Assembly: GCA_964504205.1 (NCBI GenBank)
Contig: CAZDDE010000001.1
Span: forward strand, 58,473 to 122,472
Length of the DNA: 64,000 nucleotides
Reading direction: 5' to 3'
DNA from: an uncultured Candidatus Saccharibacteria bacterium
GTDB taxonomy: Bacteria; Patescibacteriota; Minisyncoccia; Spechtbacterales; HO2-43-30
Below, one piece after another: positions 23,223 through 48,460 of this stretch (positions are counted from its first letter, which is position 1; each line of letters starts with the position of its first letter). The notes below the pieces were generated by a model. That model was not told the DNA's origin. It was given only the letters and a program-made list of their open reading frames with translations, and searched no databases. A program made the position numbers and the translations under genes.

Positions 23223-23648
23223 ATGCAAAACTTTGAAATCATAGCTCGCGCGGTGATCATAGACAATGATAAAATTTTGCTCTGCAAGCGCAAAGATCGC
23301 GATTACTATTTTTTGCCCGGCGGGCATGTTGAGTTTGGCGAAAAAACGGAAGACGCGCTCGCGCGCGAAATAAAGGAAGAACTTGGCGCAGTTAGTAGCG
23401 AGATAAATTTTATAGGCGCGTGTGAGAATATTTTTACACAAGATGGGCAAAAACGCCATGAGTTAAATTTGGCCTTTGCGGCAAAACTCGCCGCGTCAAG
23501 AACAATAAGCATGGAGGATCATCTTGAATTTAAATTAGTTGACTTCAGTGAATTCACAGACACCAACGTTCTTCCAGTTGCGTTAACGCAAGGTGTAGTC
23601 AGGTGGCTAAGCGACAAGCAGCTTTTTTGGGTTGCTTATCAGTCTTGA
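23223..23648 (+). CDS. NUDIX hydrolase
   Basis: Nudix box GGHVEFGEKTEDALAREIKEELG (G-x5-E-x7-REUxEExGU). Confidence 0.75.
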   Translation: MQNFEIIARAVIIDNDKILLCKRKDRDYYFLPGGHVEFGEKTEDALAREIKEELGAVSSEINFIGACENIFTQDGQKRHELNLAFAAKLAASRTISMEDHLEFKLVDFSEFTDTNVLPVALTQGVVRWLSDKQLFWVAYQS

Positions 23649-23672
23649 CAGAGGATTGATAATGGCTATAAT
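23645..23672 (+). promoter_or_regulatory. sigma70-type promoter overlapping the hrcA start region; TTGACA, 16-bp spacer, TATAAT
   Basis: TTGACA 23645-23650 and TATAAT 23667-23672. This implies a transcript start near 23679-23680, and the in-frame GTG at 23680 gives MLTERQ..., the canonical HrcA N-terminus. Confidence 0.5.
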
Positions 23673-24357
23673 GGAAAATGTGCTGACAGAACGGCAGGAG
23701 AAAATTTTATATTCCATCATTGATGAATACATCCAGACTGCAGATCCGGTGAGTTCCGGGGCTATTTTCGGTATAGCAAATTTTGGCGTGAGTTGCCCGA
23801 CAATTCGCAACGAAATGGCGGAGCTCACGGAACTTGGCTATCTTGCCCAGCCGCATACCTCAGCCGGTCGCGTGCCAACTGAACAAGGTTATCGTTTTTT
23901 TGTGGACAAGCTTATGGATGATTATGCTAGCAATTTAGTGAAAAAAATTCGTCGCCCGAGAAAAGCAAATACTCGCACCAATATCAACTTTGCGGCAAAA
24001 GAAATCTCCGTACAAAGCGGCGACGCAGTAATACTTGCAGATGACGAAGGTGAAATAAAATATTTTGGGCTTAAAAAATTGTTTTCCAATCCCGAATTTA
24101 AAACTAGCGAAGCAATTGTTGCCCTGATAGGGGAGTTGGAAAAGTTTGAAAATGCCATTGAAGATGCCTTTGCGCAGATTCGTGCATTTGACAATGACGT
24201 CGAAGTTTTTATCGGTAGCGAAAATCCGTTTTTCGCAAGTTCTAGTTACAGTCTTATTGTTTCTCGGCTTTCCAATGAATACGCATTCATTTCTCTGCTT
24301 GGTCCAACCCGAATGGATTACCGGCGCAATATCGCCATACTTAACAAATTTCTATGA
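23662..24357 (+). CDS. hrcA: heat-inducible transcription repressor HrcA, short form. The start is uncertain among ATG 23662, ATG 23671 and a leaderless GTG at 23680.
   Basis: N-terminal winged HTH LTERQ..IL..II..Y....PVSS..I.......S.ATIRNEMAELTELGYL..PHTSAGRVPTEQGYRFFVD matches HrcA; sits first in a grpE-dnaK-dnaJ operon. Confidence 0.72.
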   Translation: MAIMENVLTERQEKILYSIIDEYIQTADPVSSGAIFGIANFGVSCPTIRNEMAELTELGYLAQPHTSAGRVPTEQGYRFFVDKLMDDYASNLVKKIRRPRKANTRTNINFAAKEISVQSGDAVILADDEGEIKYFGLKKLFSNPEFKTSEAIVALIGELEKFENAIEDAFAQIRAFDNDVEVFIGSENPFFASSSYSLIVSRLSNEYAFISLLGPTRMDYRRNIAILNKFL

Positions 24358-24890
24358 GTACAACCGAAGAAAGGCAATATATCAATGAGGAAAGTAGCGT
24401 TGATAATGACGCTGCAAGTTTGCGCATTAAAAAGATAAAACGCGTACTTAAAAGATGCCGCGCGGAAAAGCAGGAGTATCTTGCCGGTTGGCAGCGCGCG
24501 ATGGCAGATTTTCAAAATTATAAAAAACAGCAAGGCGCTGAAAGAGAGGAATTTATAAAATTTGCCAACACCAGTCTGCTTTTGAGGTTCTTGCCTGTTT
24601 TAGATAATCTGGTTCTGACGTGCGAAACGATGCCCGAAAACGAACGCGAAAGTTCATGGGCAAAAGGCGTTTTGAGTATCTTGCGGCAATTTGAAGGACT
24701 GCTTACAGTAGAGGGGTTAGAAGAAATAAAAGTTCAAACGGGCGATAAATTTAATCCCGAAATACACGAAGCAATTGGAGAAACTACGGGTGGGGGAGAG
24801 CCGGGAACTGTGGCGGAAGTTCTGCGGAGAGGCTATAAGCTTCATGATAAAGTTATTCAAGTTACGAGAGTAAAAGTAATTAAGCAATAA
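24354..24890 (+). CDS. grpE: nucleotide exchange factor GrpE
   Basis: GrpE coiled-coil plus a C-terminal beta domain (FNPE.HEA). Confidence 0.9.
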   Translation: MSTTEERQYINEESSVDNDAASLRIKKIKRVLKRCRAEKQEYLAGWQRAMADFQNYKKQQGAEREEFIKFANTSLLLRFLPVLDNLVLTCETMPENERESSWAKGVLSILRQFEGLLTVEGLEEIKVQTGDKFNPEIHEAIGETTGGGEPGTVAEVLRRGYKLHDKVIQVTRVKVIKQ

Positions 24891-24902
24891 AGTAATAAAC
24901 AT

Positions 24903-46078: not shown

Positions 46079-46136
46079 GAGCTATGTACTCCGTATTTAA
46101 ATACGGAGTTTTATTTATGGTGAGTTTGCCAAACCC

Positions 46137-46165
46137 TTGACAATTTTTTGCCATGGTCTTATAAT
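46137..46165 (+). promoter_or_regulatory. consensus sigma70 promoter for groES-groEL; TTGACA, 17-bp spacer, TATAAT
   Basis: TTGACA 46137-46142 and TATAAT 46160-46165, with exact consensus and spacing. Confidence 0.7.
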
Positions 46166-46188
46166 GGGGTGTACATTAAAATTATCAG

Positions 46189-46295
46189 TCAAAGGTCAAG
46201 TTTGATAAAAGGTCATGAAACCTGAAACCTGAAACCTGAATTATTTTTTCAACAAAGGATCATGTTTCAGTAGTTGTGTTTCGTGTTTCATGTTT
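46189..46295 (+). promoter_or_regulatory. repeat-structured groES leader: GGTCA repeats, (TGAAACC)x3 and an imperfect inverted (GTTTCA) repeat set; candidate non-CIRCE heat-shock control element
   Basis: AGTCAAAGGTCAAG...GGTCA; TGAAACCTGAAACCTGAAACCTGAA (46216-46240); CATGTTTCAGTAGTTGTGTTTCGTGTTTCATG (46261-46292) can pair with the heptad array. Confidence 0.5.
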
Positions 46296-46303
46296 TAAGT
46301 TAC

Positions 46304-46594
46304 ATGAAGTTACGTCCGCTTCGTGATCATGTCGTCCTTGAGGCAATCAAGGAAGACAAAAAAAGCAAGGGAGGCATTGTGCTTCCGGATACGGCTTCAA
46401 AAGAGAGGCCGGAGCAGGGCAAAGTGGTGGCTGTTGGGCCCGGCCGCCTAAATTTGAAGGGGCAAAGAGTGCCGATGGAAGTGAAAAAAGGCGATACTGT
46501 CTTATTTTCTAAATACGGCCCAAACGAAATCAAGGTCGATGAAAAAGAATATTTAGTCGCGAAAGAGGAGGATATATTAGCTATTCTTGAATAA
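46304..46594 (+). CDS. groES: co-chaperonin GroES
   Basis: MKLRPL.D.V......E....GGI.LP mobile-loop region; start moved to ATG 46304. Confidence 0.9.
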   Translation: MKLRPLRDHVVLEAIKEDKKSKGGIVLPDTASKERPEQGKVVAVGPGRLNLKGQRVPMEVKKGDTVLFSKYGPNEIKVDEKEYLVAKEEDILAILE

Positions 46595-46616
46595 ATTCAA
46601 GAATAGCAATTCCTAA

Positions 46617-48290
<1,674 letters not shown>

Positions 48291-48294
48291 TACT

Positions 48295-48334
48295 AAAACA
48301 AATCATCGGGGTCAGCCCCGATGATTTGTTTTAG
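48295..48334 (+). terminator. rho-independent terminator after groEL
   Basis: AAACAAATCATCGGGG-tcag-CCCCGATGATTTGTTT perfect 16-bp stem followed by T-rich sequence. Confidence 0.85.
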
Positions 48335-48460
48335 TCTGTGGTTTTATTTTGGCGCATATTACCCTCTGTTTTTTCTTACCGAAGAGTGGTATGAAAAAGA
48401 TGGCTCATTAAAATTTTTATATTCTCCCCCGTAAGAATAGGGGAGTAGGAGGTGATCGTT

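What the first reader, a model, noticed from the sequence alone, without database searches (positions are those of the whole stretch)
46137..46303. groESL carries a long repeat-structured leader instead of CIRCE despite an HrcA-operon in the window
No TTAGCACTC-N9-GAGTGCTAA (CIRCE) was found upstream of hrcA, dnaK or groES. Instead, between a perfect consensus promoter and the groES ATG there are about 130 nt with GGTCA repeats, (TGAAACC)x3, and a downstream imperfect inverted array (CATGTTTCAG...TGTTTCGTGTTTCATG). The two arrays can pair into a ~27-bp interrupted stem around a U-rich loop. The HrcA here is also shortened (225-241 aa versus about 340). This could be a divergent HrcA operator, a different repressor site, or an RNA thermometer-like structure.
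Basis: seen in the sequence. Interest (0 to 1): 0.5.

Follow-up and report, generated by a model that had tools for sequence, protein, structure and literature searches.

The report
Variant HrcA operator plus heptad-repeat leader hairpin
The groES leader of this tiny-genome (Parcubacteria) bacterium does have its heat-shock repressor site, in a clade-specific altered spelling that changes together with the repressor's DNA-reading helix, and the 7-base repeat hairpin behind it is a non-conserved add-on of a kind common in these genomes.

Summary
The described features are real: a 12/12 consensus promoter, a 138-nt leader, (TGAAACC)x3.6, an imperfect inverted array and a short HrcA. The interpretation "instead of CIRCE" is wrong. 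A variant CIRCE, TTATCAGTC-N9-GTTTGATAA, lies at 46182-46208, about 10 nt after the likely transcription start. The "GGTCA repeats" lie in and next to it. The same variant (TTATCAGTC-N9-GATTGATAA, 23636-23662) covers the hrcA promoter.

All five closest groES loci keep this TTATCA/TGATAA form; most other Parcubacteria have TTAGCA/TGCTAA. In 12 hrcA promoters the operator type matches the HrcA recognition helix without exception: S-x-P-T-I-R-N goes with TTATCA (7/7) and S-x-A-T-I/V-R-N with TTAGCA (5/5). Short HrcA (about 206-261 aa) is the lineage norm.

The heptad hairpin is not the operator. The nearest relatives have a short leader, an unrelated hairpin, or a different heptad hairpin at the same spot. 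Heptad arrays are common in Parcubacterial intergenic DNA, especially before the Shine-Dalgarno-less groES, groEL and dnaK starts. In silico folding shows no 30-to-42 C switch. The hairpin most likely dampens translation or affects mRNA fate, or is nearly neutral. Overall this is a new variant of a known system.

The parts
46088..46109 (+). Terminator-like hairpin of the upstream gene (ACTCCGTATTT/AAATACGGAGT followed by a T-run); marks the start of the groESL transcription unit
   Evidence: terminator scan; I5 (11-nt perfect inverted repeat)
46137..46165 (+). Sigma-70-type promoter: TTGACA (46137-42), 17-nt spacer, TATAAT (46160-65); the transcription start is inferred near 46172-46173
   Evidence: 12/12; -35 and -10 conserved in the four closest relatives
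46182..46208 (+). Variant CIRCE, the inferred HrcA operator: TTATCAGTC-AAAGGTCAA-GTTTGATAA. It has 9-9-9 geometry, and the arms are 7/9 complementary.
   Evidence: exact pattern, 2 hits in the window; conserved in the closest relatives, at the position where other Parcubacteria have TTAGCA-N15-TGCTAA
46191..46215 (+). Two AAAGGTCA copies (46191-98 inside the operator spacer, 46208-15 abutting it). AAAGGTC is a motif conserved in Parcubacterial groES leaders; its function is unknown.
   Evidence: D5
46216..46240 (+). 5' heptad array (TGAAACC)x3.6, perfect copies; 5' arm of the leader hairpin
   Evidence: (D2, I1, I3, I4)
46241..46259 (+). U-rich loop region (TTATTTTTTCAACAAAGGA)
46260..46295 (+). 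3' imperfect inverted array (TCATGTTTCAG..TGTTTCG TGTTTCA TGTTT). It pairs with the 5' array with roughly one mismatch per heptad.
   Evidence: (MFE -24.8 kcal/mol, z -2.3)
46287..46308 (+). Small local hairpin TTCATGT / ACATGAA that pairs the groES AUG (46304-06) in predicted structures
   Evidence: I10; (P(unpaired) of the AUG about 0 at 10-60 C)
46304..46594 (+). groES (96 aa); no Shine-Dalgarno sequence upstream
   Evidence: Cpn10, E 3e-33
46580..46607 (+). 13-nt perfect inverted repeat spanning the groES stop codon
   Evidence: read; analogous hairpins in relatives
46608..46642 (+). Heptad array (AATTTCT)x4.7 filling the groES-groEL spacer up to the groEL ATG; no Shine-Dalgarno sequence
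46644..48290 (+). groEL (548 aa), followed by a 20-bp-stem terminator at 48292-48335
23636..23662 (+). Second copy of the variant CIRCE: TTATCAGTC-TTGACAGAG-GATTGATAA. It lies on the hrcA promoter: the -35 TTGACA (23645-50) is inside its spacer, and the -10 TATAAT (23667-72) lies 4 nt after it.
   Evidence: the same architecture in L161-L164, L170, L172
23680..27861 (+). hrcA (short form; probable leaderless GTG start at 23680) - grpE - dnaK - dnaJ operon
   Evidence: for the start position in homologues

Best explanation
groES-groEL is transcribed from a consensus sigma-70-type promoter. It is repressed by HrcA binding a clade-specific variant of CIRCE at 46182-46208 (about +10 to +36). In this variant the core half-sites read TTATCA/TGATAA instead of TTAGCA/TGCTAA. 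The same variant operator overlaps the -35 of the hrcA-grpE-dnaK-dnaJ promoter, so both chaperone operons form an ordinary autoregulated HrcA regulon. The operator change is matched by a change at the N-terminus of the HrcA recognition helix: S-(S/A/P)-A-T becomes S-(C/S)-P-T.

The heptad arrays are a separate and evolutionarily young element. They are heptanucleotide simple-sequence repeats of a kind common in Parcubacterial intergenic DNA. They sit between the operator and the start codon in inverted orientation, so the 5'-UTR folds into an imperfect hairpin that reaches the Shine-Dalgarno-less start region.

The hairpin's most likely effect is inferred, not shown: it reduces access of the 30S subunit to the groES start, or alters mRNA processing or stability. 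It is a tunable accessory, not the primary heat-shock switch.

Shown here: the sequence features, their conservation or lack of it, and the covariation. Inferred: HrcA binding, the transcription start, and any effect of the hairpin.
For: Operator in the window:
- The exact variant pattern occurs twice in 64 kb, at the groES leader and the hrcA promoter. About 0.55 hits are expected by chance even at up to 3 mismatches.

Operator in relatives:
- 106 of 157 Parcubacterial groES upstream regions carry TTAKCA-N15-TGMTAA at exactly 27 bp. None occurs elsewhere in 909 kb of flanking DNA.
- The window and its four closest relatives (GroES identity to the window 79-89%) all have the TTATCA/TGATAA form. 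Promoter and operator are conserved, and sequence diverges right after TGATAAA.
- hrcA promoters of the clade have TTATCA(N)TC-TTGACAnnn-GA(Y)TGATAA (L161-164, L170, L172). Other Parcubacteria have canonical or near-canonical TTAGCACTC-N9-GA(G/T)TGCTAA after or overlapping the promoter, over the -35 or -10 in L165-167 and L171.

HrcA:
- A wHTH plus HrcA C-terminal domain are detected.
- The model has pLDDT 89.7, with helix 42-54 starting C42-P43-T44. It matches T. maritima HrcA 1STZ with TM 0.78 over the query.
- S-x-P-T occurs in 55 of the 57 clade HrcAs (the other two gave no motif match). S-x-A-T occurs in all 52 others that gave a motif match.
- Operator type follows the motif in 12 of 12 sampled loci.

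Hairpin:
- TRF and inverted-repeat results are; folding z is -2.3 to -2.5.
- Relatives have 33-34-nt leaders (L081, L001), an unrelated 166-nt hairpin (L082), or a different heptad hairpin (L083).
- Long Parcubacterial groES leaders are generally structured: median z -4.7 and 42/48 at z <= -2, against -0.7 and 19/58 for control 5' regions, p 2e-11.
- The hairpins end a median of 7 nt before the AUG and lower predicted accessibility: P(unpaired) over -18..+6 is 0.43 against 0.57 for short leaders.
- Arrays per kb: leader 1.6, groES-groEL spacer 5.7, other intergenic 1.0, coding 0.18. Period 7 is the dominant period.
- groES, groEL and dnaK lack a Shine-Dalgarno sequence, while about 10 of 50 genes in the window have GGAGG.
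Against: - No binding, transcription-start or expression data exist. HrcA-operator pairing is inferred from position, geometry, conservation and covariation.
- The right arm of the groES operator is only 7/9 complementary to the left arm.
- The covariation comes from essentially one clade, so it may be a single evolutionary event. It is phylogenetically non-independent. Three groES loci outside the clade carry a TGATAA right half-site: two have TTATCA on the left (L025, L068) and one has TTAACA (L096). None could be checked for its HrcA.
- For the hairpin, the window's z-score is at the weak end of the class.
- Enrichment of arrays in groES leaders over other intergenic DNA is modest (1.6 against 1.0 per kb), which fits a neutral slippage product.
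- The 'long leader' set was selected on length, which inflates the structure contrast.
- The conserved AAAGGTC motif inside the operator spacer is unexplained and could mean that a second factor acts here.
Confidence: 0.75

Rival explanations
1. The heptad hairpin is a functionless by-product. Polymerase slippage and template switching generate heptanucleotide arrays and quasi-palindromes in permissive intergenic DNA of these genomes, and the groES leader merely tolerates one.
For: - It is absent from the four closest relatives.
- Heptad arrays occur at about 1 per kb in other intergenic DNA of Parcubacteria, and period 7 dominates everywhere.
- The 5' array is 100% identical, so it is recent.
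- Over-representation of heptameric repeats in bacteria is known and has been attributed to slippage (PMC4692102).
- The window's folding z-score is weak.
Against: - Hairpins recur independently at the same site in about 45% of CIRCE-bearing lineages, and they are far more structured than control 5' regions.
- They consistently end within 0-15 nt of the AUG.
- Arrays are about 5.6-fold enriched in the groES-groEL spacer.
- In the window, 4 of 5 period-7/8 arrays lie at the groES, groEL and dnaK 5' regions.
Confidence: 0.35
2. The hairpin is an RNA thermometer. At low temperature it occludes the groES start region, and it melts on heat shock, adding translational control to HrcA control.
For: - The AUG and the -20..-1 region are predicted to be largely paired.
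- The stem is imperfect, with roughly one mismatch per heptad, as in known thermometers.
- There is precedent: an RNA thermometer upstream of Salmonella groES (PMC4166951).
- The hairpins of relatives abut the AUG.
Against: - There is no predicted switch. P(unpaired) of the AUG is about 0 from 10 to 60 C, and -20..-1 moves only from 0.35 to 0.43 between 30 and 42 C.
- There is no Shine-Dalgarno sequence to mask.
- No ROSE, fourU or other Rfam family matches.
- The hairpin is not conserved in close relatives.
- Many analogous hairpins are far too stable to melt, at -30 to -45 kcal/mol.
Confidence: 0.12
3. The hairpin is an mRNA processing or stability element. For example, it could be an RNase III substrate or a protective stem that separates the CIRCE-containing 5' end from the coding part and sets the mRNA half-life.
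For: - Long double-stranded stems are typical of the class.
- A further hairpin spans the groES stop codon, which suggests structured processing of this operon.
- 5'-UTR structure, RNase III and repeat-number variation are linked in another bacterium (PMC12721329, abstract seen).
Against: - The window's stem is short helices interrupted by mismatches.
- It is internal, not at the 5' end.
- No RNase data exist for this lineage.
- It is not conserved in close relatives.
Confidence: 0.15
4. The heptad arrays (TGAAACC direct repeats), or the GGTCA repeats, are a DNA operator. The binding protein would be HrcA itself or a different repressor such as a CtsR-like protein.
For: - Direct heptad repeats resemble the CtsR box format.
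- AGTCAAAGGTCAAG resembles CtsR half-sites.
- AAAGGTC is conserved across Parcubacterial groES leaders, so some factor may recognise that motif.
Against: - The TGAAACC array is absent from every relative examined.
- It is absent from the hrcA/dnaK upstream region. Hits in the window outside the leader are at the chance level: 9 observed against 5.6 +/- 2.2 expected.
- The CtsR pattern gives no hit in the leader at up to 3 mismatches.
- A 7-bp period puts successive sites on different faces of the helix (established DNA geometry).
- A proper CIRCE-geometry operator is already present.
Confidence: 0.04

Closest known systems
HrcA-CIRCE heat-shock regulon (consensus TTAGCACTC-N9-GAGTGCTAA; revised core TAGCA-N15-TGCTAA, PMC8762339)
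   Same: - A 27-bp inverted repeat with 9-9-9 geometry.
- It lies after or over a sigma-70-type promoter of groESL and of hrcA-grpE-dnaK.
- The hrcA gene is present and apparently autoregulated.
- Flanking arm positions (xTC/GAx) are retained.
   Different: - The core G:C at position 4 of each half-site is T:A (TTATCA/TGATAA), so the element fails consensus searches at up to 3 mismatches.
- HrcA is about 110 aa shorter than the T. maritima protein.
- HrcA has Pro instead of the otherwise invariant Ala at the start of the recognition helix.
- The groES operator spacer carries a conserved AAAGGTC.
Intergenic heptanucleotide tandem repeats: TAACTGA repeats of Beggiatoaceae, Cyanobacteria and Bacteroidetes (PMC4679880), GGGAATC of Xanthomonas, and the heptamers of Calothrix and Nostoc (PMC4692102)
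   Same: - 7-nt units in 3-8 tandem copies in intergenic DNA.
- They often lie immediately upstream of start codons that lack a Shine-Dalgarno sequence.
- Length and sequence vary between close relatives.
- Inverted pairs able to form stem-loops have been noted.
- A translational role has been proposed but not proven.
   Different: - The units here differ (TGAAACC, AATTTCT and others) and vary from lineage to lineage.
- They are commonly arranged as two inverted arrays forming one hairpin.
- Within the loci held here (all groESL neighbourhoods) they are densest in the groES leader and the groES-groEL spacer.
- They have not been described for Parcubacteria in the library searched.
RNA thermometers of heat-shock genes (ROSE, fourU; Salmonella groES thermometer, PMC4166951)
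   Same: A 5'-UTR hairpin with mismatches next to the start codon of a heat-shock gene, acting in addition to transcriptional control.
   Different: - There is no Shine-Dalgarno sequence to mask.
- No family motif is present.
- No predicted melting occurs in the physiological range.
- The element is not conserved.

Membership tests
CIRCE (HrcA operator) | Inverted repeat with 9-bp arms and a 9-bp spacer (27 bp) | tested here: met
   46182-46208 TTATCAGTC-N9-GTTTGATAA (arms 7/9 complementary) and 23636-23662 TTATCAGTC-N9-GATTGATAA (8/9)
CIRCE (HrcA operator) | Sequence consensus TTAGCACTC-N9-GAGTGCTAA (or core TAGCA-N15-TGCTAA) | tested here: not met
   There are 0 hits at up to 3 mismatches. 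The groES element has 5 of 18 arm mismatches. The core hexamers differ by one symmetric position (G>T / C>A).
CIRCE (HrcA operator) | Located at the promoters or leaders of groESL and hrcA/dnaK operons | tested here: met
   Its only two exact occurrences in 64 kb are these two sites. It occupies the position where canonical CIRCE lies in sister lineages.
CIRCE (HrcA operator) | Cognate HrcA encoded in the genome | tested here: met
   PF01628 E 2e-15 plus a wHTH; 1STZ E 6e-20; the structure model matches 1STZ with TMq 0.78
CIRCE (HrcA operator) | Bound by HrcA, with repression relieved by heat | not testable with these tools
   There is only indirect support: the operator type covaries with the recognition-helix motif in 12 of 12 hrcA loci.
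RNA thermometer (ROSE / fourU type) | Family sequence-structure motif | tested here: not met
   No Rfam family matches at gathering score or near it in a sensitive scan of 46100-46700.
RNA thermometer (ROSE / fourU type) | Shine-Dalgarno sequence or AUG masked at low temperature and released at heat-shock temperature | tested here: inconclusive
   The AUG is predicted paired at all temperatures from 10 to 60 C, and there is no Shine-Dalgarno sequence. Accessibility of -20..-1 rises only from 0.35 to 0.43 between 30 and 42 C. This is in silico only.
RNA thermometer (ROSE / fourU type) | Conserved upstream of the orthologous gene in relatives | tested here: not met
   The closest relatives lack it. 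Only analogous, non-homologous hairpins occur.
Intergenic heptanucleotide simple-sequence repeats | At least 3 tandem 7-nt units in non-coding DNA | tested here: met
   TGAAACC x3.6, GTGTTTC x2.9, AATTTCT x4.7
Intergenic heptanucleotide simple-sequence repeats | Positioned just upstream of start codons lacking a Shine-Dalgarno sequence | tested here: met
   The 3' array ends 9 nt before the groES ATG, and the AATTTCT array ends 1 nt before the groEL ATG. Neither gene has a Shine-Dalgarno sequence.
Intergenic heptanucleotide simple-sequence repeats | The same unit dispersed at many loci of one genome | tested here: inconclusive
   TGAAACC arrays occur nowhere else in the 64-kb window, and the rest of the genome is not available. 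AATTTCT recurs in 9 relatives' spacers, and L057 and L025 reuse their own units at other loci.
CtsR operator | Direct heptad repeat RGTCAAA-NAN-RGTCAAA | tested here: not met
   No match in the groES leader at up to 3 mismatches; the window total is at the chance level.

The most novel reading that the evidence does not exclude
Parcubacteria may use hairpins built from inverted heptanucleotide arrays, placed directly against Shine-Dalgarno-less start codons, as a lineage-wide post-transcriptional control layer. In the loci examined these hairpins are concentrated in the groES leader and groES-groEL spacer, with a related repeat before dnaK in the window. Their strength would be re-tuned quickly by repeat slippage. 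They might be read by S1, a cold-shock protein or RNase III, or respond to temperature. Separately, the Ala-to-Pro change in the HrcA recognition helix together with the G-to-T change in both half-sites may be a true specificity switch. If so, it pinpoints which HrcA residue reads position 4 of CIRCE.
Probability: 0.2. Interest if true: 0.65.

Novelty: new variant of a known kind. Interest (0 to 1): 0.42.

Why it matters
- Annotation: consensus-based searches will report 'no CIRCE' for a whole clade (Spechtbacteria-like Parcubacteria) whose HrcA regulon appears to be intact. That would wrongly suggest that regulation has been lost or replaced in reduced genomes.
- HrcA-DNA recognition: a symmetric operator change co-occurs with a single recognition-helix change in 12 of 12 loci. 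This natural experiment gives a directly testable prediction: residue 42/43 reads base pair 4. I know of no HrcA-DNA co-structure (from memory), and a search for HrcA, 'recognition helix' and CIRCE together found no paper.
- Short HrcA: the roughly 220-aa form (wHTH plus GAF-like core, without the insert of about 100 aa seen in 1STZ) is the norm in the lineage. In the four clade-external hrcA promoters read, it pairs with full canonical CIRCE. This form bears on how GroEL-dependent thermosensing works.
- Heptad hairpins: those next to Shine-Dalgarno-less starts of chaperone genes are a recurring, undescribed feature of Parcubacterial 5'-UTRs. They extend the unresolved question of what intergenic heptamer repeats do in bacteria.

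Tried and rejected
- Canonical CIRCE search at up to 3 mismatches: 0 hits. This led to the variant search.
- CtsR-box search: nothing in the leader.
- Heptad search across the window: no array outside the groES leader, and the remaining 3-mismatch hits are at the chance level.
- Rfam: only two tRNAs at gathering threshold in the window. The sensitive scan of 46100-46700 gave only far-sub-threshold eukaryotic snoRNA/miRNA noise.
- Temperature-series folding, 10-60 C: no switch.
- Repeat copy-number variation: the only other contig encoding the identical GroES is base-for-base identical, so nothing was learned about slippage.
- hrcA, grpE or dnaK within the 160 groES loci: none found. No CIRCE-like element lies outside groES leaders there.
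- Mini-ORFs in the leader (ATG 46214, MKPET*; ATG 46262, MFQ*): rejected as leader peptides. The SD-like AAAGG lies only 2 nt from each ATG, and neither ORF is conserved.
- AAAGGTC as a Shine-Dalgarno sequence or a reverse-strand -35: rejected. Its distance to the ATG varies from about 20 to 200 nt, and the majority form AAAGGTCG does not give TTGACC on the other strand.
- A Fur-box reading of TGATAA: rejected. The element keeps CIRCE 9-9-9 geometry and flanks, and it replaces canonical CIRCE position for position (L171 against L172).
- Literature: no paper combines CIRCE with the Candidate Phyla Radiation in any relevant way, and none links HrcA, 'recognition helix' and CIRCE.
Full report
OBSERVATION

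A 12/12 sigma-70-type promoter is present: TTGACA 46137-42, a 17-nt spacer, and TATAAT 46160-65. It follows the terminator-like hairpin of the upstream gene at 46088-46109. groES starts at ATG 46304 (Cpn10 E 3e-33) and groEL at 46644.

Between the -10 and the ATG lie 138 nt containing:
- two AAAGGTCA copies;
- (TGAAACC)x3.6 at 46216-46240, all units identical;
- an imperfect inverted array at 46260-46295.

The longest arm pairing is 28 nt at 79% complementarity (I1). The leader folds better than dinucleotide shuffles, with z -2.5 and -2.3. An independent contig of the same strain is identical, so this is not an assembly artefact. The textbook CIRCE is absent from the whole window at up to 3 mismatches.

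ORGANISM

The 160 GroES-related loci retrieved from genomes and metagenomes are, wherever named, Patescibacteria of the Parcubacteria/Paceibacteria group (some records are labelled 'Saccharibacteria'). The closest named genome is a Candidatus Spechtbacterales MAG, with 85% GroES identity.

THE MISSED ELEMENT

In most relatives the promoter is followed by TTAGCA(N)TC-AAAGGTCG(N)-(NNN)TGCTAA. This is CIRCE geometry with the core hexamers of the revised CIRCE consensus TAGCA-N15-TGCTAA (PMC8762339). At the same position the window has TTATCAGTC-AAAGGTCAA-GTTTGATAA (46182-46208). The G of TTAGCA and the complementary C of TGCTAA are both replaced, giving TTATCA and TGATAA.

Searching for this variant gives exactly two perfect hits in 64 kb. 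One is the groES site. The other is 23636-23662, TTATCAGTC-TTGACAGAG-GATTGATAA, directly on the hrcA promoter. There the -35 hexamer is inside the spacer and the -10 lies 4 nt downstream.

COMPARATIVE SUPPORT

- Of 157 usable groES upstream regions, 106 carry TTAKCA-N15-TGMTAA with at least 11 of 12 core matches at exactly 27 bp. Of these, 98 are the G/C type and 8 the T/A type.
- No such element occurs anywhere else in the 909 kb of flanking sequence held.
- The window and its four closest relatives (L081, L082, L001, L083; GroES identity to the window 89, 87, 85 and 79%) are all T/A type.
- In their alignment the -35, the -10 and the operator are conserved, and similarity ends right after TGATAAA.

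For hrcA I fetched eleven homologous loci.
- Six from the Spechtbacteria-like clade (HrcA 43-70% identical to the window's) have TTATCA(N)TC-TTGACAnnn-GA(Y)TGATAA with the same promoter overlap.
- Five from other Parcubacteria have TTAGCACTC-N9-GA(G/T)TGCTAA after or overlapping the promoter; in L165-167 and L171 it covers the -35 or the -10.

HrcA ITSELF

The window protein has the HrcA wHTH: residues 5-82 align to 1STZ residues 15-92 with E 6e-20. It also has the second half of the Pfam HrcA C-terminal domain.

An AlphaFold model built on 28 homologues has pLDDT 89.7. It superposes on T. maritima HrcA with TM 0.78 normalised to the query and 0.58 normalised to the target. This means a wHTH plus a GAF-like core, without an insert of roughly 100 residues. 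Of the 120 best database hits, 116 are 206-261 aa long; the rest are two fragments (151 and 168 aa), one of 279 aa, and two of 345-350 aa that match only 35% of the query. In the four clade-external hrcA promoters read, short HrcA pairs with full canonical CIRCE. The short form is therefore the lineage norm and not a sign of decay.

The model's third helix (42-54), the wHTH recognition helix by topology, begins C42-P43-T44-I-R-N-E-M. Of the 57 clade HrcAs in the hit list, 55 have S-(C/S)-P-T-I-R-N-E-M here and the other two gave no motif match. All 52 others that gave a motif match keep S-x-A-T-(I/V)-R-N. Across the 12 hrcA promoters read, Pro goes with TTATCA/TGATAA in 7 of 7 and Ala with TTAGCA/TGCTAA in 5 of 5. 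One Pro protein has Ser instead of Cys, so Pro is the better marker. This fits co-evolution of a dimeric repressor with its palindromic operator. It is essentially one clade, so it may be a single event.

THE HEPTAD HAIRPIN

The hairpin is not part of the conserved apparatus. After the identical or near-identical operator:
- L081 and L001 have 33-34-nt AT-rich leaders;
- L082 has an unrelated 166-nt hairpin-forming insert;
- L083 has a hairpin built from a different heptad, CTAAAAG/AGCTAAA.

The TGAAACC array is found nowhere else in the window.

At the class level the picture changes. The CIRCE-to-ATG distance is spread widely, with quartiles of 21, 54 and 95 nt. The 48 distinct leaders of at least 55 nt are strongly structured, with median z -4.7 and 42 of 48 at z <= -2. 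Control 5' regions from divergent intergenic spacers give a median of -0.7 and 19 of 58, p 2e-11. Selecting on length biases this comparison.

Many of these leaders are pairs of inverted short-period arrays with unrelated units. Their 3' ends lie a median of 7 nt before the AUG. Predicted accessibility of -18..+6 is lower than in short leaders, 0.43 against 0.57.

Tandem arrays with period 5-12 and at least 2.8 copies occur at these densities:

| Region | Arrays per kb |
|---|---|
| groES leaders | 1.6 |
| groES-groEL spacers | 5.7 |
| other intergenic DNA | 1.0 |
| called coding sequence | 0.18 |

Period 7 is the most common in every class.

In the window, four of the five period-7/8 arrays lie just upstream of the groES, groEL and dnaK start codons. 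These genes lack a Shine-Dalgarno sequence, although about 10 of 50 genes in the window have a clear GGAGG.

MECHANISM

The primary control is an ordinary HrcA-CIRCE circuit in variant spelling. This is inferred from position, geometry, conservation and covariation; binding was not tested.

The hairpin is best read as a young, slippage-prone insertion of heptanucleotide repeats that happens to fold. Its arm reaches the ribosome landing zone of a Shine-Dalgarno-less gene, so the most likely consequence is damped or tunable translation initiation. An effect on mRNA processing or stability is the next option, and near-neutrality is a serious alternative.

A thermometer is not supported in silico. 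The AUG stays paired from 10 to 60 C through the local stem TTCATGT/ACATGAA, and upstream accessibility changes little between 30 and 42 C. No Rfam family matches.

A DNA operator role for the heptads is very unlikely for three reasons: they are not conserved, they are absent at hrcA and dnaK, and a 7-bp period is unfavourable for repeated binding on one face of the helix.

COMPARISON WITH KNOWN SYSTEMS

- The operator is a member of the CIRCE kind by geometry, location and partner protein, but it fails the sequence-consensus test. I therefore class it as a variant.
- The arrays fit the known but unexplained phenomenon of intergenic heptameric repeats. Examples are the TAACTGA repeats, which lie immediately upstream of start codons without Shine-Dalgarno sequences and have S1, Csp or CsrA proposed as readers (PMC4679880). 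Others are Xanthomonas GGGAATC and the cyanobacterial heptamers, where heptamer over-representation has been attributed to slippage (PMC4692102).
- A thermometer upstream of Salmonella groES is the nearest functional precedent for dual control (PMC4166951).
- I found no paper describing CIRCE or these repeats in the Candidate Phyla Radiation.

VERDICT

Its headline, that the leader stands 'instead of CIRCE', is wrong. What remains of interest is a clade-wide respelling of a highly conserved operator with a matching recognition-helix change, and a recurrent class of heptad-repeat hairpins at chaperone gene starts in Parcubacteria.

Noticed in passing
window 46191-46198 and 46208-46215; L002, L006, L026, L042, L058, L073 leaders: AAAGGTC(G) is conserved at 70-84% per position in the spacer of Parcubacterial groES CIRCE elements (64 of 106 loci). 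When the spacer lacks it, a separate 'AAAGGTCGnnnnTGCTAA' unit follows downstream. Sixteen loci with no recognisable CIRCE still carry AAGGTC in the leader. It is absent from hrcA operators, whose spacer holds the -35 or -10. Only 5 AAAGGTC occur in the 64-kb window on both strands, and 2 of them are here. Its function is unknown; it may be a second factor's site or an RNA motif.
   Followed up: partly
window 46580-46607: A perfect 13-nt inverted repeat (GCTATTCTTGAAT aa ATTCAAGAATAGC) spans the groES stop codon. Analogous stop-spanning hairpins, complementary to each species' own groES 3' end, occur in L085, L087, L090, L099 and L125. This may be a processing, stability or attenuation site between groES and groEL.
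   Followed up: no
window 46608-46642; L096, L117, L125, L127 spacers; L025 and L057 leaders: The groES-groEL spacer is filled by (AATTTCT)x4.7 up to the groEL ATG, with no Shine-Dalgarno sequence. The same heptad, on the same strand, is the commonest spacer unit among relatives (9 loci). It also builds the groES leader hairpins of L025 and L057. Spacer arrays are about 5.6-fold denser than in other intergenic DNA.
   Followed up: partly
window 24873-24899: (AAAGTAAT)x3.4 spans the grpE stop and ends 4 nt before the dnaK ATG. dnaK also lacks a Shine-Dalgarno sequence.
   Followed up: no
window 23667-23682; L161-L164, L170, L172: hrcA appears to be transcribed as a leaderless mRNA. The -10 (TATAAT 23667-72) is followed after 7 nt by an in-frame GTG (23680) that gives MLTERQ.... 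In the homologous loci the ATG lies 6-7 nt after the -10-like hexamer. The ATG at 23671 overlaps the -10 and would lie upstream of the inferred transcription start.
   Followed up: partly
L082:1030-1205 (also L026, L042, L069 leaders): The 87%-identical relative carries, at the site of the heptad hairpin, an unrelated 166-nt palindromic insert. It contains 'gagcgaacgaagtgagtcgaaggg / ccctcgacaggctcgggg'-type sequence that recurs in the leaders of unrelated Parcubacteria. This suggests a dispersed palindromic repeat element that lands in groES leaders.
   Followed up: no
window-wide (gene starts listed): Shine-Dalgarno use is patchy. About 10 of 50 genes have a clear GGAGG-type site. Most others, including all the chaperone genes, have AT-rich upstream regions without one.
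   Followed up: partly
L025, L068, L096 (groES leaders): Three loci outside the Spechtbacteria-like clade (about 65% GroES identity) also have T/A-type or mixed operators: TTATCA...TGATAA in L025 and L068, and TTAACA...TGATAA in L096. Unique operators also include mixed G/A and T/C states at positions 4/24 (3 each). These may be independent or intermediate steps of the operator switch.
   Followed up: no
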